Shown here: piece after piece, positions 50,685 through 56,652 of the stretch
Position numbering within the stretch: the first letter of the stretch is position 1
Layout: every line of letters starts with the position of its first letter
Assembly (NCBI RefSeq): GCF_030384885.1
Contig: NZ_CP128613.1
DNA length: 64,000 bases
Direction: 5' to 3' (one strand)
Source of the DNA: Escherichia coli
Lineage (GTDB): Bacteria > Pseudomonadota > Gammaproteobacteria > Enterobacterales > Enterobacteriaceae
Translations under genes and position numbers: made by a program
The notes under the pieces: generated by a model
The model's input: the letters and a program-made list of their open reading frames with translations, nothing else
Told to the model about the DNA's origin: nothing
Database searches by the model: none

Positions 50685-51095
50685 GGTACTTACTCCTTTA
50701 TTTTTTTAGTTATACATTTAAGTAAATACTATATTTTGCGTGCAAGTCAATACTTAAAGTTTATATTTTTTAAAATAACTAACACTTGATGTTTTTACGT
50801 ATAAAACTTGTAGTGCTACAGAATATATACAAATAACACTTTATTATTTTTATTTGAGAATAGTTATCAACTTAAGTACCGGGATTCGGGACTTTAACTC
50901 CCGAGAGTGCGTACTTTGTTTTAAGCTATAGCTGGCTTGAGAGCAGTTTTCTTCTTCATTATTCAAATAGCGAAGCTTTGGATGACATTTTAAAGAATAT
51001 AATATTGGAAATAGTTCTTCTTTTTAGTTGATTGGTGCCTTATCAAAATGGCACCAGTGGTGTTATCTGTGTTATTTTTCCTACTATGTTATTAC

Positions 51096-51145
51096 AGCGA
51101 AGTGATTGTTGTATACAATCACGAACCGCTGCTACTATCGGGACT
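51096..51145. repeat. dyad-symmetric repeat copy A (GTGATTGT-n5-ACAATCAC followed by GAAnnGCTGCTA)
   Basis: Seen directly; shares about 40 nt with copy B. Confidence 0.8.
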
Positions 51146-51232: not shown

Positions 51233-51280
51233 CAGCAGAGTGATTGTTCGCAACAATCACGAAGTGCTGCTATCAAGGAT
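51233..51280. repeat. dyad-symmetric repeat copy B (GTGATTGTT-CGC-AACAATCAC followed by GAAGTGCTGCTA)
   Basis: Seen directly; perfect 9-bp inverted arms. Confidence 0.8.
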
Positions 51281-51602
51281 ATAGTTTTCCTATACGTTTA
51301 AGAGCAAATGCTATATGTCTAAAGGGAAAAACTATGTTTAAACATAGGATCTAAATTCAGCATCATGAGGAAAAGAGATCAAACAATGATCGAGTACTTT
51401 TCTTTTTATTTAAAAAACAGGAGATGAATAAAATAAAAATATCAGCGTCAGGGCGTAGCCGTGCGTAAGCACAGAGATAAAGATCTTTTCAATAAGAAGT
51501 TTAATAATCAGTAGTGAAATCATAAATAAAATAAAAATATATTTGATTTTTACGCCTGCGATAGAGTATTAAACAGTAATAAAATAATAAAAGGAAAATA
51601 TA

Positions 51603-51872
51603 ATGAACAATACCAAAATGATCACTCTCTTCCATCCACATGACAAAACACCATTTATAATCTGTATTGTAAACAAAGTAGAAGATACAGACCACGGATT
51701 GAAATTAACCCTTGAAAACGGCAACAATATTTGTGTCAATAATTATAGTCATTATCTGTTATCAGAGTCTGTAAGTCGTTGCGATAAACACAGGTTAAAA
51801 AATATTTATATTCGCTTGGTTTCAGAACTCACGCAGATGAGTGAAAAAACTATAAATTCGCAAATGTTATAA
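51603..51872 (+). CDS. hypothetical small protein
   Basis: 89 aa ORF with RBS aaaagga; no recognisable domain. Confidence 0.45.
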   Translation: MNNTKMITLFHPHDKTPFIICIVNKVEDTDHGLKLTLENGNNICVNNYSHYLLSESVSRCDKHRLKNIYIRLVSELTQMSEKTINSQML

Positions 51873-51950
51873 AATATCTATAAAGACATAATAAATATTT
51901 TTGATATTATGATTAGTTGCATGGTATTAAATAAAAACAGGAAAAATATC

Positions 51951-52355
51951 ATGCTAAAAATAAAAACAAAGATCTATATACCTACAACTTTAACAGGAAA
52001 CATGGATAAACACTATATCCCTGTTTTAGAGGATTTAAGAAAAGCGATATACAGCGACAGAATGTTATCAAGGCTTGCAGATAGCGGCAATATTGTTATC
52101 CATAGTTCAGTTGGGTATCCGGTTGCTAAATACAAAAATACGGGTATTAGCATAGGTATAGAACCATTGAATCCAATGATAAGACAAAATCTGACTCTTG
52201 GATATATTATGGTTGTCAGAAACGGAAAAGCATCACAGGAGATTAATGGTTTACTTAACAGGTCATTGCCAAAAGCAATAAGCACTTTTAAGGATCACAT
52301 CAATGAATATGAAGCAGTAAAAAGTAAAATGCGACAACAAACTATGATCTGGTAA
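51951..52355 (+). CDS. hypothetical protein
   Basis: ORF 51909..52355, internal ATG 51951. Confidence 0.45.
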   Translation: MLKIKTKIYIPTTLTGNMDKHYIPVLEDLRKAIYSDRMLSRLADSGNIVIHSSVGYPVAKYKNTGISIGIEPLNPMIRQNLTLGYIMVVRNGKASQEINGLLNRSLPKAISTFKDHINEYEAVKSKMRQQTMIW

Positions 52356-52469
52356 AATATTTAGTCTGATAACTACAGGAGAAGGATGAGCAATGGAAGG
52401 TAAGTTAATTTTTGTTCCGATGCAATACTACGGTTTCAATCCAATTACGATGAAACCGCTGCCGTTCCA

Positions 52470-53432
52470 TTGCTATCCATCCAGAACGTCATAGCCAATA
52501 CCGATCCGTTCTTTCTTCTCCGGTTCTTCCACCATACCGTTCTGATTGAAGAAGGAACAACGCTGGCAAGTATCTTTCTGGCAATAGAACCATGGAAGGC
52601 TTTGTTAGCAGCTTATCTGGACAGAGATGTTGGTGCTTATATAGATGAGGTAAGAAAACCGTCCGGGCCAACGGCATGGGATATTGAATGGATCGGAATT
52701 GACCGTCGAAGTTCGGTTTATCGCGCTTACAAGCGTCAGGATATGGAAGAAGGGGAGGATTTTTCGACCTATTTTAATCGCGAGCGCTTCCCGACTGATG
52801 AGCTTGACATAGAAAGTAGCTGTGATGCTTCCGGCTTTATCAAAGGAGATAAAGAACGCTGGAGTATCAGCGGCGATATTCAACAAATTAAAAATCTTCC
52901 TGTAATCCTCTATAGCAAACAGACATTAATGACTTCACCGAAAGACGGTTTGCTGAAGAAAAACGTATCGGGTGTGAAGAGTTCCAAGCACAGTTGCTTT
53001 GTTTATGGCGATACCTCGTTTTCTTTTAGAGAGGTTATGGAAGCCATCTTCATTAGTAGGCTGTTCTTCTATGCACCAAAAGACGCAGCCAGCAGCCTTG
53101 ATGAGCTGAAAGCGAGTCTGGCTGAACTGGAAGAAGAACGTGCTGAAAGCACAAATACGGAGTCGATCGGCAATGAAACAGGTGAAGAACCTACCATCGT
53201 CGTAGCCGACGGTGCTTTTGATTCGCTCGCTGCTCACATGGAGTCTGAAAAGCGGAGTGGCAATCCATTAAGAAGTTGTGCCAGCAGGAAGGAGGGCTGC
53301 CCATACGTATTGGCAACATCAAAATGGCTGAGCCTCCAGCGTTATAGCTATTTTAAGAAAAGAAATGATGTAAATATGCATCTGGTTTTTCTTTATAATG
53401 TAAGGATGTCCGATGAAACATCAGCATCGTGA
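52470..53432 (+). CDS. hypothetical protein, possibly frameshifted at N-terminus
   Basis: 320 aa ORF with only a TTG start and no SD; a 33-codon ORF with strong RBS (aggagaagg) begins at about 52393 in the -1 frame and overlaps. Confidence 0.45.
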   Translation: MLSIQNVIANTDPFFLLRFFHHTVLIEEGTTLASIFLAIEPWKALLAAYLDRDVGAYIDEVRKPSGPTAWDIEWIGIDRRSSVYRAYKRQDMEEGEDFSTYFNRERFPTDELDIESSCDASGFIKGDKERWSISGDIQQIKNLPVILYSKQTLMTSPKDGLLKKNVSGVKSSKHSCFVYGDTSFSFREVMEAIFISRLFFYAPKDAASSLDELKASLAELEEERAESTNTESIGNETGEEPTIVVADGAFDSLAAHMESEKRSGNPLRSCASRKEGCPYVLATSKWLSLQRYSYFKKRNDVNMHLVFLYNVRMSDETSAS

Positions 53433-53640
53433 ATGTTATCTGGTTAATAATTTTCTTATGTAATATTATCTATGCCATCTGGCTATGTTTTCAATTGTTT
53501 TAGTTCTCGACAACTGTTTTTATATCCAGTATGATTTTACTCGTATCCGGCAGAATATTTTTAGATGCTGTTTCATGAACTCCGGTTGAAAGGTTTATTC
53601 TCTACTTTTGGGAATAATAGTTAAAATGGAGATAAGTGTA

Positions 53641-55077
53641 ATGACGTTTAGTAATGAAATTGAAGTTTTCATAAAAGATTTTGTTAAAGATCTTGAAAAT
53701 GATTGTGCTGCTATTTTTTCTGGCGCAGGAATGTCTAAAAGTCAAGGTTATGTTGATTGGAAAGAATTACTTAGCGATATAGCAGAAGAACTTAGTTTAG
53801 ACATTAATAAAGAAGACGATCTAATATCGCTTGCTCAATTTCATGTTAATGAAAAGAAAGGGGCTACAAAACTCACAAGGAAGATAATCGAAGAGTTTTC
53901 TGAGCAAGCCGAGCCATCAGAGGTTCATAATATAATTGCTCGTTTACCGATTAAGACATTTTGGACAACAAACTATGACACTTTAATTGAAGATAGTCTG
54001 CGGAAAGTTTACAAAATTGCAGATGTAAAAAGAAACATAGATGATTTAAATACAACACGACCTAAGCGAGACGCGATAGTATATAAAATGCATGGTGATA
54101 TTTCGTCCCCATCCAAGGCTATTTTATATAAAGAGCAGTATGAAAAATACTACAGAACACACGCTTCATTTATCACCGCACTTAGCGGAGATTTAATATC
54201 AAAAACCTTTCTATTCATAGGGTTTAGTTTTACCGACCCAAATCTGGATTACATTTTGAGTCGTTTGTATACTCATTCTGGGGACAAGAGGACACACTAT
54301 TGCTTTATGAAGAATGAGGCTAATAATTCCCTAGATGATGAAGAAACAGTAAATTATAAGATCAGAAAACAAAAACTGCGAATCGATGATCTCAAGAGAT
54401 TTGGTATACAAGTATTATTAATAGATGAATATTCTGACATCCCTAAAATTCTAGCTAAGATAGAGCAATCATTTAAAAAGAAAACGATATTTATTTCTGG
54501 TAGTGCAGAAAAATATGGGGATCTTGAAAGACCTAAAGCATTAGATTTTATTCACACATTAGCATATGAGATTATAAAGAATAATTATAGGATAGTGAAT
54601 GGATTTGGATGGGGCGTCGGAAGTTCTGTGATAAATGGTGCGTTGGATGCAATTTATAGTAGGCCAGATAAATTATCAGAAGAACAGCTCATTGTTAGAC
54701 CATTTCCACAAACTGTCAGTAAGGGGAAAGATATTCAAGAACTTTGGGAGGAGTATAGACAGAGAATGATTCCTCTTGGTGGTATTGCATTGTTTATTTT
54801 TGGAAATAAACAAGAGGAAAATAATGATATAGTTAATGCTAGGGGAGTATTTAGAGAGTTTGAGATTGCTGTTCAACATGGCCTTGTACCAATTCCTTTA
54901 CCCAATACCGGGTATATGTCTAAATATATATTTGAACAAATATCACAAGATCCTAAGAAATATTATGGAAGTAATGAATGGATATATAATGATTTGTCTG
55001 AGCTTACTGAAAAAGATTTTTCGGTAAAAAAAACAATAGAAGTTGTAATAAAAATCATAAACAAACTGAATAAATAA
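53641..55077 (+). CDS. thsA: Thoeris ThsA-like protein (N-terminal SIR2 NADase, C-terminal SLOG domain)
   Basis: ORF 53608..55077; SIR2 motifs FSGAGMS, TTNYD, HGD; C-terminal Rossmann-like FISGSAEKYG... SLOG region; length matches ThsA. Confidence 0.85.
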   Translation: MTFSNEIEVFIKDFVKDLENDCAAIFSGAGMSKSQGYVDWKELLSDIAEELSLDINKEDDLISLAQFHVNEKKGATKLTRKIIEEFSEQAEPSEVHNIIARLPIKTFWTTNYDTLIEDSLRKVYKIADVKRNIDDLNTTRPKRDAIVYKMHGDISSPSKAILYKEQYEKYYRTHASFITALSGDLISKTFLFIGFSFTDPNLDYILSRLYTHSGDKRTHYCFMKNEANNSLDDEETVNYKIRKQKLRIDDLKRFGIQVLLIDEYSDIPKILAKIEQSFKKKTIFISGSAEKYGDLERPKALDFIHTLAYEIIKNNYRIVNGFGWGVGSSVINGALDAIYSRPDKLSEEQLIVRPFPQTVSKGKDIQELWEEYRQRMIPLGGIALFIFGNKQEENNDIVNARGVFREFEIAVQHGLVPIPLPNTGYMSKYIFEQISQDPKKYYGSNEWIYNDLSELTEKDFSVKKTIEVVIKIINKLNK

Positions 55078-55093
55078 TATATTAGGTGAAGTT

Positions 55094-55705
55094 ATGGCTC
55101 ATGAAACATTCATATCATATAAATATAGTGAAGCACAGGATTTAAGAGACAAAATTGTCAAGGCATTAGGAGATGACGCTGTTTACTATAAAGGGGAGAC
55201 ATCGGAGTCTCCTGATATAAGTAATACAACAGTAGATAATATAAAGAACAATCTTAAAAATATGATTTTCGGGACATCTGTTTTAATTGTTATTATTTCC
55301 CCGAATATGATTAAAAGTAAATGGATTGACTGGGAAATTGAATATGCATTGAAAGAATACAAGAGAGGAGGAACCACTTCCCGAACTAATGGCATTGTTG
55401 GTGTGATAATGAAGGTTAATAATAGCTATGACTGGTTAGTATCTTCTTCAATCAAGCCTGATGGATGTTCATCAAGAACTATTGATACAACTAAACTATA
55501 TGACATTATTAATAATAATAGGTTTAATTTAACTTCAGAAGATAAATATTGTTGCCCTGAGTGCAAATCATATGATCAATTGACTGGTTCTTATATTTCA
55601 TTGATAGAAGAAGACCGATTTTTAGCAGATGTATCTTCATACATTGAAAATGCCTATGAGAAATCTAAAAAATTAAGTTCCTACGATTTATATAAACAAA
55701 AATAG
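55094..55705 (+). CDS. thsB: Thoeris ThsB-like TIR-domain protein
   Basis: 203 aa, N-terminal FISYKYSEAQ and SKWIDWEIEYAL typical of bacterial TIR domains; 16 bp downstream of thsA. Confidence 0.8.
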   Translation: MAHETFISYKYSEAQDLRDKIVKALGDDAVYYKGETSESPDISNTTVDNIKNNLKNMIFGTSVLIVIISPNMIKSKWIDWEIEYALKEYKRGGTTSRTNGIVGVIMKVNNSYDWLVSSSIKPDGCSSRTIDTTKLYDIINNNRFNLTSEDKYCCPECKSYDQLTGSYISLIEEDRFLADVSSYIENAYEKSKKLSSYDLYKQK

Positions 55706-55754
55706 ATGATAACGGAAAAGGGCCACAATTATTTGTGGCCTATATATACACATA

Positions 55755-56132
55755 TTAATCAAGCAGGCCACGAGATGTCTTACTTGCAGTCTGACGAAAA
55801 TCATAACGTTCCGCAATATCACCTTTAAACCAGATATCCAGTGATTTAATGTGCGCCGTGTTGCTATTGGTCAACAGAGCAAGGCCCGGTATGTAGTTAG
55901 ATAGTTGGCTTTCTCCCGTCATACTTGAGTAGTTCCACATCTCCTGACCATCAGTCGTAGCGCGTGTTTGAGGCTCTCCAAAGGCAGCAAGAATTTCTTG
56001 TTGGGTAGTTTTTCCCTTGACGATTTTTAATTTAACCGTTTGATGATTTTCATCAGTTAGGGATTTATTACCATGAACGGTACAGCCACTAAGTGGTAAT
56101 ATGATAAAAATAGCAAGTAATAATTTTTTCAT
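55755..56132 (-). CDS. lipoprotein with SmpA/OmlA (BamE)-like domain
   Basis: Signal peptide with lipobox LSGC; ...KGKTTQQEILAAFGEP... resembles BamE fold family. Confidence 0.55.
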   Translation of the reverse strand: MKKLLLAIFIILPLSGCTVHGNKSLTDENHQTVKLKIVKGKTTQQEILAAFGEPQTRATTDGQEMWNYSSMTGESQLSNYIPGLALLTNSNTAHIKSLDIWFKGDIAERYDFRQTASKTSRGLLD

Positions 56133-56163
56133 TTTGTTCCATAATTAGATGAAAGGTGAGACG

Positions 56164-56652
56164 TTAGAAAACATACTTTTTAAATACCAGCATCCATCGC
56201 TCACAAAGTTCGTGATTTGAAGTGCTTTTATTTTTCAAGGGAACATTAACTTTCCACATGGGATTTTTAATATCATCGGTTAAAATATTTAGACCAGACC
56301 GTTTGTTTGCTGAAAGTTGTTCTCTCCAGTTAGCAATGGCCGCATTATTCATACCTCGTAATGTTCCATTGCCGTAAAACTTACCACCTTCTGAAAGCGT
56401 ATAATTTATTTCTCGAATTTGATCAAAAGTATATGTGCTATCTTTATCTTTATTGAAAATACGGACAGTATGTTTTTGAGTATCAATGACAATACCTGTC
56501 TGTTGGCATTGATACGAAAGAATGTCGCCGTCCAGAACTTCCGTGAAGCTGTTGTAGTGCTTTTTCTTCTGTATATCTGCTGCGGTCATGATAATGACGA
56601 AGAGCACCACTAAAAATACGATACCTGTTGCTTCCACTTTTACTTCCTCCAT
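56164..56652 (-). CDS. hypothetical membrane-anchored protein
   Basis: 162 aa ORF with one N-terminal TM helix; weak RBS. Confidence 0.45.
   Translation of the reverse strand: MEEVKVEATGIVFLVVLFVIIMTAADIQKKKHYNSFTEVLDGDILSYQCQQTGIVIDTQKHTVRIFNKDKDSTYTFDQIREINYTLSEGGKFYGNGTLRGMNNAAIANWREQLSANKRSGLNILTDDIKNPMWKVNVPLKNKSTSNHELCERWMLVFKKYVF

What the first reader, a model, noticed from the sequence alone, without database searches (positions are those of the whole stretch)
51603..53432. Uncharacterised three-gene block directly upstream of Thoeris, with a possible frameshift
Three co-directional ORFs (89, about 134 and 320 aa) with no domain I can recognise sit immediately 5' of thsA. The 320-aa ORF has no ATG and no SD at its predicted start. 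A 33-codon ORF with an excellent RBS begins about 80 bp upstream in the -1 frame and overlaps it, suggesting either a disrupted gene or programmed frameshifting. Location between a replication-like module and a known defence system makes this a candidate novel defence or anti-defence module.
Basis: inference. Interest (0 to 1): 0.6.

Follow-up and report, generated by a model that had tools for sequence, protein, structure and literature searches.

The report
Decayed island gene beside Thoeris
The "split" gene upstream of Thoeris is an ordinary pseudogene: a conserved but uncharacterised backbone gene of a known family of E. coli/Salmonella genomic islands that has lost one base in each of two homopolymer runs, not a programmed frameshift or a Thoeris partner.

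Summary
Three co-directional ORFs lie 5' of a type I Thoeris system. The 33-codon ORF with the good RBS is the true start of the third gene.

Intact orthologues are single ORFs of 318-320 aa in E. coli, Salmonella, Klebsiella, Serratia and Pantoea. Some sit directly upstream of the same ThsA/ThsB. Against them, the window copy has two 1-nt deletions: T6->T5 at 52409-52413 and A5->A4 at 53248-53251. Its true stop is TAG 53345-53347, so the last 61 residues of the "320-aa ORF" are out of frame. RefSeq already annotates relatives as "hypothetical protein, frameshifted".

The block is backbone of the serU/ROD21-type (EARL) mobilisable island. It borders a cargo slot (53348-55752) that holds Thoeris here and other genes elsewhere. 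Each of the three genes is missing or broken in some relative, so this is not an obligate module and not Thoeris-specific. Programmed frameshifting is not supported.

By-product: gene-3 orthologues head a MukBEF-like plus JetD-like module that is shared between genera.

The parts
51603..51872 (+). Gene 1: an intact 89-aa hypothetical protein, part of the island backbone.
   Evidence: ORF with AAGGA about 9 nt upstream of the ATG. 133 homologues, nearly all 89 aa, in Escherichia, Salmonella, Klebsiella and Citrobacter, none with a Pfam domain. dN/dS 0.13-0.21 against L003, L004 and L006. It is a frameshifted pseudogene in CFT073.
51951..52355 (+). Gene 2: an intact 134-aa hypothetical protein. 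Relatives are 128 aa; here their stop codon reads CAA, which adds 6 residues.
52393..53347 (+). Gene 3: a 955-nt pseudogene. The ancestral gene was a 957-nt, 318-aa ORF. It is now read in three frames: 52393-52413, then about 52413-53251, then about 53251-53347.
   Evidence: Inserting one T and one A restores a clean 318-aa ORF that is 86% identical to the intact protein P0001. PGAP annotates the equivalent gene in L002 and L003 as 'hypothetical protein, frameshifted'.
52409..52413 (+). Frameshift site 1: a T5 run. Intact orthologues have T6, or TTTTCT in distant ones.
   Evidence: Alignment A1 and per-locus site readout. The window and L002 have T5. L003, L004, L006 and L026-L030 have T6.
53248..53251 (+). 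Frameshift site 2: an A4 run (GAAAAG). Intact E. coli and Salmonella orthologues have A5 (GAAAAAG).
   Evidence: The window, L002 and L003 have A4. L004, L006 and L026-L028 have A5. The shift removes the conserved C-terminal 33 residues (W...IG.I motif), which are well ordered in the AF2 model.
53345..53347 (+). The ancestral stop codon (TAG) of gene 3, which is also the left edge of the cargo slot.
   Evidence: Translation of frame C. DNA homology to islands carrying other cargo ends at 53335-53346.
53348..55752 (+). The cargo slot, holding type I Thoeris (thsA 53641-55077, thsB 55094-55705). The region 53348-53432 is only the out-of-frame tail of the '320-aa ORF'.
   Evidence: PADLOC ThsA1 8e-203 and ThsB1 1e-85. 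Homology to L004 and L006 resumes at 55753-55780. GC content drops after about 53350.
55755..56132 (-). A 125-aa lipoprotein gene, convergent with gene 3, that forms the conserved right border of the cargo slot.
   Evidence: 90-96% identical in L002-L006. PGAP calls it 'lipoprotein' in L033. By position it corresponds to the BamE-like SEN1984 of ROD21 (PMC10655114).

Best explanation
The region is backbone of a tRNA-Ser (serU)-integrated, MobQ-mobilisable genomic island of the ROD21/EARL / CFT073-serU-island type. Genes 1-3 are conserved hypothetical genes. They lie between the RepL-like/H-NS module and a cargo slot bounded by the stop codons of gene 3 and a convergent lipoprotein gene. Thoeris is the cargo here. 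Gene 3 is a pseudogene. Two independent single-base contractions of homopolymer runs (T6->T5 at codon 7/8, A5->A4 at codon 286) break a formerly single 318-aa ORF into three frames. These are most likely replication-slippage mutations. The A4 lesion is older: it lies in the 3' half of the gene, which moves together with the Thoeris cassette by homologous recombination. The T5 lesion was added later in one sub-lineage. No full-length product is expected. The block is not functionally tied to Thoeris. Shown: the two lesions, intact orthologues, synteny, cargo variability, and purifying selection on the intact genes. Inferred: slippage as the mutational mechanism, the order of events, and the absence of a functional product. 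The biochemical role of the intact gene-3 family is not established. My best guess, at low confidence, is an accessory function that benefits the mobile element and is dispensable in the resident host.
For: Intact orthologues of 318-320 aa start MEGKLIFCSDAILRF... and end ...AEWQSIKKLCQQEGGLPIRIGNIKMAEPPAL, matching frames A, B and C of the window in turn. Adding 1 T and 1 A restores the ORF. The site states in 14 loci are given. The same Thoeris sits beside an intact gene 3 in E. coli (L026-28) and Klebsiella (L029-30). PGAP marks the gene 'frameshifted' in L002 and L003. The broken alleles are abundant and so are not sequencing errors. The T6+A4 product is on 750 contigs, the T5+A4 product on 681, and the window-exact product on 17. 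The intact P0005 and P0001 are on 77 and 3. 84 complete E. coli genomes carry the whole region. Long-term dN/dS of gene 3 is 0.11-0.15. Between the two double-frameshift alleles (window and L002) there are 2 synonymous and 6 non-synonymous changes, including G->R in the conserved GLF motif, which fits relaxed constraint. Between L002 and L003 the 5' half of gene 3 has dS about 0.5 while the 3' half is identical, so there is a recombination breakpoint inside the gene. Synteny and cargo variation: methyltransferase-like 536 aa, HHH protein, PDC-S15, restriction endonuclease, DUF4238, others. The slot edges are mapped. Island identity rests on tRNA-Ser at 43794-43883, an H-NS homologue and MobQ in the window by 88-99% protein identity to annotated relatives, the AlpA-type RDF and DUF6387 genes by about 94% DNA identity to those relatives, and the literature (PMC6035254, PMC10655114, PMC8147327).
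Against: Restoring each site by a -1 slip of a single tRNA would reproduce the wild-type peptide exactly: tRNA-Phe on U UUU G and tRNA-Lys on A AAG. Trace amounts of full-length protein therefore cannot be excluded from sequence alone. There is a modest hairpin downstream of site 1 (z = -1.9, with 7 of 200 shuffles folding as well). The broken alleles persist in many lineages with no further stop codons in the main frame. That could mean recent inactivation, or residual use of a truncated product. The relaxed-selection signal rests on only 8 substitutions. No expression data were available.
Confidence: 0.9

Rival explanations
1. Programmed recoding: -1 ribosomal frameshifting (or transcriptional slippage) at the T run, and again at the A run, produces full-length gene-3 protein as a regulated product.
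For: A good RBS sits on the short ORF. A -1 slip on U UUU G and on A AAG would give exactly the orthologous sequence. There is a weak hairpin after site 1. The shifted allele is widespread.
Against: Orthologues, including Thoeris-linked ones, are single ORFs. There is no X XXY YYZ heptamer. Two independent shifts would be required, and their efficiencies multiply. Site 2 has no downstream structure (z = 0.1). Runs of 5 T or 4 A are too short for efficient transcriptional slippage (established knowledge). L003 has site 1 intact, so that shift is a recent polymorphism. Non-synonymous changes have accumulated.
Confidence: 0.03
2. Sequencing or assembly artefact: homopolymer miscalls created apparent frameshifts in an intact gene.
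For: Both lesions are 1-nt length changes in homopolymers, which is the classic error mode of some sequencing platforms.
Against: The identical T5/A4 states occur in many independent complete genomes from different laboratories and platforms. The resulting proteins are seen on hundreds of contigs, and the window-exact ORF product on 17. Runs of 4-5 nt are short for such errors.
Confidence: 0.03
3. Genes 1-3 form a defence or anti-defence module that works with, or regulates, the downstream cargo (here Thoeris). The frameshifts would tune or switch it.
Confidence: 0.07
4. A truncated product is the functional form: either the TTG-initiated 320-aa ORF, or the 346-aa T6+A4 protein with a new C-terminus.
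For: The main frame stays open for 320 codons. The T6+A4 allele (P0340) is very common.
Against: The TTG has no SD. The truncation removes the first 26 residues, including the near-invariant D10, L13 and R14. It also replaces the conserved, well-ordered C-terminal helix and strand. The new tail is translated cargo-flank DNA of low GC.
Confidence: 0.05

Closest known systems
ROD21 / EARL (Enterobacteriaceae-associated ROD21-like) excisable islands and the CFT073 serU island
   Same: The backbone order is the same: DUF6387 gene, AlpA-type RDF, H-NS homologue, DUF4756, RepL-like gene, three small hypothetical genes, cargo, BamE-like lipoprotein, DUF4755, lipoprotein, MobQ relaxase, TraD and type IV pilin (PMC6035254, PMC10655114). 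By position, genes 1-3 fall in the uncharacterised SEN1986-SEN1989 interval of ROD21, between the SEN1985 methyltransferase-like gene and the SEN1990 'RepL' (inference). CFT073 carries an intact gene 3 (WP_000398601.1) in the same place.
   Different: The island here sits beside tRNA-Ser (serU) rather than tRNA-Asn. The cargo is Thoeris. Gene 3 is doubly frameshifted. The RepL-like gene here (185 aa) is a different type from the 244-aa gene at that position in the ROD21-like Salmonella locus L004 (no tblastn match).
Ordinary bacterial pseudogenes caused by homopolymer indels
   Same: Single-base contractions of short mononucleotide runs, patchy among close relatives, with signs of relaxed constraint afterwards.
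   Different: Nothing material. The only unusual point is that one lesion travels with a recombining cargo cassette.
Programmed -1 frameshifting of the dnaX / IS3 type
   Same: A short upstream ORF with a strong RBS overlaps a long ORF in the -1 frame. An A AAG motif is present at site 2.
   Different: There is no tandem slippery heptamer, no conserved stimulator, two shifts would be needed, and orthologues are unshifted.
Defence hotspots bounded by conserved genes in mobile elements (e.g. P2/P4 hotspots; from my own knowledge)
   Same: A slot with fixed borders holds different defence or accessory genes in different relatives.
   Different: The host element is a mobilisable island rather than a prophage or satellite. 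The left border gene (gene 3) is itself sometimes replaced.

Membership tests
Programmed -1 ribosomal frameshift site | A slippery heptamer X XXY YYZ in the zero frame within the overlap | tested here: not met
   The overlap 52404-52491 contains only A.ATT.TTT.G (a T5 run). Site 2 is T.GAA.AAG. Read.
Programmed -1 ribosomal frameshift site | A stimulatory downstream RNA structure | tested here: inconclusive
   Site 1: -13.4 kcal/mol, z = -1.94, with 7 of 200 shuffles folding as well. Site 2: z = 0.10.
Programmed -1 ribosomal frameshift site | The shifted two-ORF arrangement is conserved in orthologues | tested here: not met
   Orthologues in E. coli, Salmonella, Klebsiella, Serratia, Pantoea and others are single ORFs. 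L003 has site 1 intact.
ROD21/EARL-type (serU-island) excisable mobilisable island | Integration next to a tRNA gene, with an AlpA-type RDF and the ~840-bp DUF6387 gene at that end | tested here: met
   tRNA-Ser is at 43794-43883. Window 44000-46449 is 94% identical to the stretches of L001 and L003 annotated as DUF6387 plus AlpA. The tRNA is Ser, whereas published EARL islands use Asn.
ROD21/EARL-type (serU-island) excisable mobilisable island | An H-NS homologue, a MobQ/MobA relaxase, TraD and a type IV pilin | tested here: met
   H-NS ORF 48894-49298 and MobQ ORF 58888-60369 match annotated relatives at 88-99%. TraD and the pilin are seen in relatives and lie in the homologous DNA up to window 62000.
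ROD21/EARL-type (serU-island) excisable mobilisable island | A P4-type tyrosine integrase and flanking direct repeats; demonstrated excision | not tested
   The far end of the island lies beyond the window. Excision cannot be tested in silico.
Thoeris type I (context only) | ThsA (SIR2 plus STALD/SLOG) with an adjacent ThsB (TIR) | tested here: met
   PADLOC ThsA1 8.2e-203 (full length) and ThsB1 1.1e-85.
Any catalogued defence or anti-defence protein family (for genes 1-3) | A significant match to PADLOC, PHROGs, NCBIfam or Pfam models | tested here: not met
   The best hits are all non-significant: Csx1 E 0.0023, ocr-like E 0.13, OPRTase E 0.074, DUF7843 E 0.31.
Gene-3 protein family (unnamed, 318-370 aa) | Full-length collinear similarity including the near-invariant D10, L13, R14, E53, T57, P67, W68, Y83 and P170 | tested here: met
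   The restored window sequence aligns end to end with P0001 and others and keeps these residues. As encoded, the gene is disrupted.

The most novel reading that the evidence does not exclude
The gene-3 family is a widespread mobile-element protein with a fold not represented in the PDB. It is preferentially placed, co-oriented, at the head of defence-gene slots: Thoeris, PDC-S15, and a MukBEF-like plus JetD-like cluster that moves between genera together with it. It could therefore be a new regulator, accessory subunit or counter-measure of SMC-type or other immunity. On that reading, its repeated loss in E. coli would reflect a cost once the island is resident.
Probability: 0.1. Interest if true: 0.6.

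Novelty: already known. Interest (0 to 1): 0.25.

Why it matters
As a finding it mostly removes a false lead. The apparent recoding site is a decayed gene, and the three genes are backbone of a known island family rather than a Thoeris-linked system.

It has some secondary value. It maps the cargo slot of serU/ROD21-type islands exactly, from stop codon to stop codon. It shows that the Thoeris cassette spreads by recombination using the 3' half of gene 3 as a homology arm. It also flags gene 3 as a broad, uncharacterised family with a confident, PDB-unmatched predicted fold that repeatedly borders defence cargo.

Tried and rejected
- **Gene 2 as a phosphoribosyltransferase.** The NCBIfam OPRTase hit had E 0.074. 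There is no similarity to the PRTase next to a phage-borne gene-3 relative. Rejected.
- **Gene 2 as HicB-like.** No similarity to the HicB-like gene upstream of a plasmid-borne gene-3 relative. Rejected.
- **Gene 3 against databases.** Searches of Pfam with a single sequence and with 87 family members, a PDB sequence profile, PADLOC, PHROGs and NCBIfam gave nothing significant.
- **Gene 3 in plasmids and phages.** tblastn against 72,556 plasmids and 50,697 phage genomes gave nothing beyond two mislabelled chromosomes.
- **Viral contig scans.** The scan with alignment A2 failed because no block was conserved enough. The scan with P0150 found nothing.
- **General link between gene 3 and SMC operons.** Seven distant relatives that I checked have no such neighbours. 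The link is therefore confined to one enterobacterial sub-clade.

Full report
**1. What is in the sequence**

- Gene 1 is 51603-51872 (89 aa).
- Gene 2 is 51951-52355 (134 aa; the longest possible ORF starts at 51909).
- A 33-codon ORF runs 52393-52494 and is preceded by GGAGAAGGA.
- A 320-codon ORF starts at a TTG at 52470 with no SD, and runs to 53432.

Translating the three forward frames shows that the long frame is open from 52404. It is -1 relative to the short ORF.

A third frame carries ...KAEWQSIKKLCQQEGGLPIRIGNIKMAEPPAL and then a stop at 53345-53347.

GC content is about 45-50% over 52450-53350 and about 30% on both sides.

**2. Gene 3 is a single gene with two lesions**

A search with the conceptual fusion returned 200 proteins. 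The full-length ones are 318-332 aa, and none has a Pfam domain. They come from Escherichia, Salmonella, Citrobacter, Klebsiella, Serratia and Pantoea.

Their sequences begin MEGKLIFCSDAILRFQ... and end ...HMESEKAEWQSIKKLCQQEGGLPIRIGNIKMAEPPAL. The window matches this in frame A for 7 codons, then in frame B, then in frame C.

At the DNA level there are two differences:
- The window has ATTTTTG where intact genes have ATTTTTTG. This is T5 at 52409-52413 against T6.
- The window has GAAAAG where intact E. coli and Salmonella genes have GAAAAAG. This is A4 at 53248-53251 against A5.

Adding one T and one A gives a clean 957-nt, 318-aa ORF.

RefSeq/PGAP already annotates the same gene in close relatives as "hypothetical protein, frameshifted".

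**3. The lesions are real mutations, and broken alleles are common in public E. coli data**

- 519 of 5,426 complete E. coli genomes match part of the region.
- 84 of them match all of it, always on the chromosome.
- L002 shares both lesions with the window. L003 has T6 but shares the A4 lesion.
- In the 15-billion-protein collection, the T6+A4 product is on 750 contigs and the T5+A4 product on 681.
- The window-exact product is on 17 contigs. The intact E. coli forms P0005 and P0001 are on 77 and 3.

**4. Orthologous Thoeris loci have an intact gene**

P0001 (E. coli; L026-L028) and P0064 (Klebsiella variicola; L029-L030) are intact 318-aa genes. Each lies directly upstream of the same 478-aa SIR2/STALD ThsA and 203-aa TIR ThsB.

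The window is 95% identical in DNA to L026 across 51500-56200.

The split arrangement is therefore a derived, decayed state and not a conserved recoding device.

**5. Evidence on selection**

Long-term dN/dS for gene 3 is 0.11-0.15. For genes 1 and 2 it is 0.13-0.21. All three are, or were, real protein-coding genes.

Between the two doubly frameshifted alleles (window and L002) there are 2 synonymous and 6 non-synonymous differences. One is G->R in the conserved FxxGLF motif. This fits relaxed constraint, but the count is small.

Between L002 and L003 the first 160 codons have dS of about 0.5, while the rest of the gene is identical. Recombination has therefore broken inside gene 3. The 3' half, carrying the A4 lesion, travels with the Thoeris cassette.

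**6. Programmed frameshifting**

Several points argue against it:
- Neither site has an X XXY YYZ heptamer.
- Two separate -1 events would be needed.
- Downstream folding is weak at site 1 (z = -1.9) and absent at site 2 (z = 0.1).
- Runs of 5 T or 4 A are too short for efficient transcriptional slippage (established knowledge).

A single-tRNA slip at U UUU G and at A AAG would regenerate the wild-type peptide. That is true of any homopolymer deletion, and it cannot be excluded at trace level.

**7. Context**

tRNA-Asn (42727-42802), mtfA, and tRNA-Ser at 43794-43883 precede the island.

Annotated relatives and protein mapping give this gene order:
1. DUF6387 gene
2. AlpA-type regulator
3. small genes
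4. a short H-NS-like gene
5. variable slot 1
6. H-NS
7. DUF4756
8. RepL-like gene
9. a 0.9-1.3 kb intergenic region
10. genes 1, 2 and 3
11. variable slot 2
12. a 125-aa lipoprotein gene on the opposite strand
13. DUF4755
14. lipoprotein
15. MobQ relaxase
16. TraD
17. type IV pilin

This is the ROD21/EARL family (PMC6035254) and the CFT073 serU island (PMC8147327; L032).

A study of ROD21 lists its genes. It found no structural homologue for most of the hypothetical ones.

**8. The cargo slot**

DNA homology between the window and islands carrying other cargo stops at 53335-53346, which is the true stop codon of gene 3. It resumes at 55753-55780, the stop of the lipoprotein gene. Thoeris type I fills the gap (PADLOC ThsA1 8e-203, ThsB1 1e-85).

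In relatives the same position holds different genes:

| Locus | Content at the cargo position |
|---|---|
| Salmonella L004/L005 (ROD21-like) | 536-aa protein; by position SEN1985, annotated as a methyltransferase in ROD21 |
| E. coli L006-L008 and CFT073 | 390-aa helix-hairpin-helix protein |
| L033 | 232-aa hypothetical protein |
| Serratia L014 | 305-aa protein plus a PDC-S15 candidate |

The last codons of gene 3 change along with the cargo.

In some islands gene 3 itself has been replaced or lost:
- by a restriction endonuclease in L001;
- by a DUF4238 gene in L034;
- by two unrelated genes in L035.

Gene 2 is missing in Klebsiella, Serratia and CFT073. Gene 1 is frameshifted in CFT073.

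The "three-gene block" is therefore a mosaic of individually dispensable backbone genes. It is not an obligate module and not specific to Thoeris.

**9. What the proteins are**

Genes 1 and 2 belong to narrow enterobacterial families with no detectable domains.

Gene 3 belongs to a much broader family:
- It has 165 clusters at 50% identity, typically 320-370 aa and collinear over the full length.
- Near-invariant residues are D10, L13, R14, E53, T57, P67, W68, Y83 and P170.
- AF2 on an 87-sequence alignment gives pLDDT 89.4 and pTM 0.85, with a disordered acidic linker at 250-273.
- Foldseek against AFDB50 finds only uncharacterised proteins, and one DUF932 entry at TM 0.5.

Distant members lie in varied contexts:
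- a mobile region with ligase, ART-PolyVal and HipA genes;
- a 137-kb phage-like scaffold, next to a small PRTase;
- a plasmid-like contig, 4 nt after a HicB-like gene;
- a lone chromosomal position.

No relative was found in the curated plasmid or phage collections. The function remains unknown.

**10. By-product**

Gene-3 orthologues at 66-69% identity are the first gene of a 9.1-kb block. The block is shared at 90-95% DNA identity by Klebsiella indica, Kluyvera, Tatumella, Phytobacter and an unnamed Enterobacteriaceae genome, with unrelated flanks. One complete E. coli genome also carries it.

The block encodes, in order:
- the gene-3-like protein;
- a very divergent MukF-like protein (54 bits, against a cut-off of 407);
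- a divergent MukE-like protein (65 bits, against a cut-off of 250);
- a MukB-like protein (1,472 bits);
- a 324-aa protein with a weak JetD_C match.

PGAP names this last protein in the E. coli copy (335 aa) a JetD-domain protein. PADLOC 2023 does not recognise the cluster.

This looks like a Wadjet-style system built on a MukBEF scaffold. I could not decide whether gene 3 works with it or merely borders it. Seven more distant gene-3 relatives have no such neighbours.

**11. Verdict**

"Disrupted gene" is the right reading. Programmed frameshifting and a Thoeris-linked module are not supported. The feature is ordinary and already flagged by standard annotation. The residual interest lies in the unknown function and unmatched fold of the gene-3 family, and in its recurrent position at the head of defence cargo.

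Noticed in passing
L019 9704-18820 (also L016, L020, L021, L023; E. coli L031 12256-21143): A 9.1-kb block is shared at 90-95% nt identity across five enterobacterial genera, with unrelated flanks. It encodes a gene-3-like protein, highly divergent MukF- and MukE-like proteins, a MukB-like protein (1,472 bits) and a JetD-like protein. PADLOC 2023 does not recognise it. In E. coli DETEC-P881 it sits after yeeN, next to a UvrD-helicase/ATP-dependent-nuclease gene pair that looks Gabija-like. It is possibly an undescribed Wadjet-type system built on a MukBEF scaffold.
   Followed up: partly
window 46449-48894 (ORF 46832-48682, + strand): A second variable slot lies between the short H-NS-like gene and the H-NS gene. 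Here it holds a 616-aa P-loop (GIAGQGKST) NTPase ORF with no PADLOC hit. In ROD21-like Salmonella islands the same slot holds a SMODS nucleotidyltransferase plus a SLATT protein. In many E. coli it holds a DUF6404 gene.
   Followed up: partly
window 51095-51134 and 51233-51272: There are two copies, 138 nt apart, of a 40-nt imperfect palindrome (CAGCGAAGTGATTGTTGTATACAATCACGAACCGCTG...). They lie in the long intergenic region between the RepL-like gene and gene 1. This DNA stretch is conserved (81-84% identity) in Salmonella, E. coli and Serratia islands. It could be an operator or an origin-like element.
   Followed up: partly
window ~52880 (inside gene 3): There is a recombination breakpoint here. 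Upstream of it, L002 and L003 differ with dS of about 0.5. Downstream, gene 3 is identical between them, and their ThsA and ThsB proteins both match the window's at 100%. The Thoeris cassette has therefore moved between diverged island backbones, using the 3' half of gene 3 as a homology arm.
   Followed up: yes
window 52335-52355: The stop codon that ends gene 2 at 128 aa in relatives reads CAA here, extending the protein by 6 residues (QQTMIW).
   Followed up: no
L032 (E. coli CFT073 serU island): In CFT073, gene 1 is itself annotated as frameshifted, gene 2 is absent and gene 3 is intact. The slot after gene 3 holds a helix-hairpin-helix protein. tcpC, with a macro-domain gene and a second TIR gene, lies in a different slot beyond the lipoprotein genes.
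   Followed up: partly
L025 8584-10095; L011 7552-9002: Distant gene-3 relatives are tightly coupled to a different small upstream gene in each case. One is a HicB-like antitoxin-fold gene with a 4-nt gap, on a plasmid-like contig. The other is a 149-aa phosphoribosyltransferase with an overlapping stop and start, on a 137-kb phage-like scaffold.
   Followed up: no
window 42078-42207: Rfam match to EFASI sRNA (90 bits, gathering threshold 51) just outside the island, near tRNA-Asn and mtfA.
   Followed up: no
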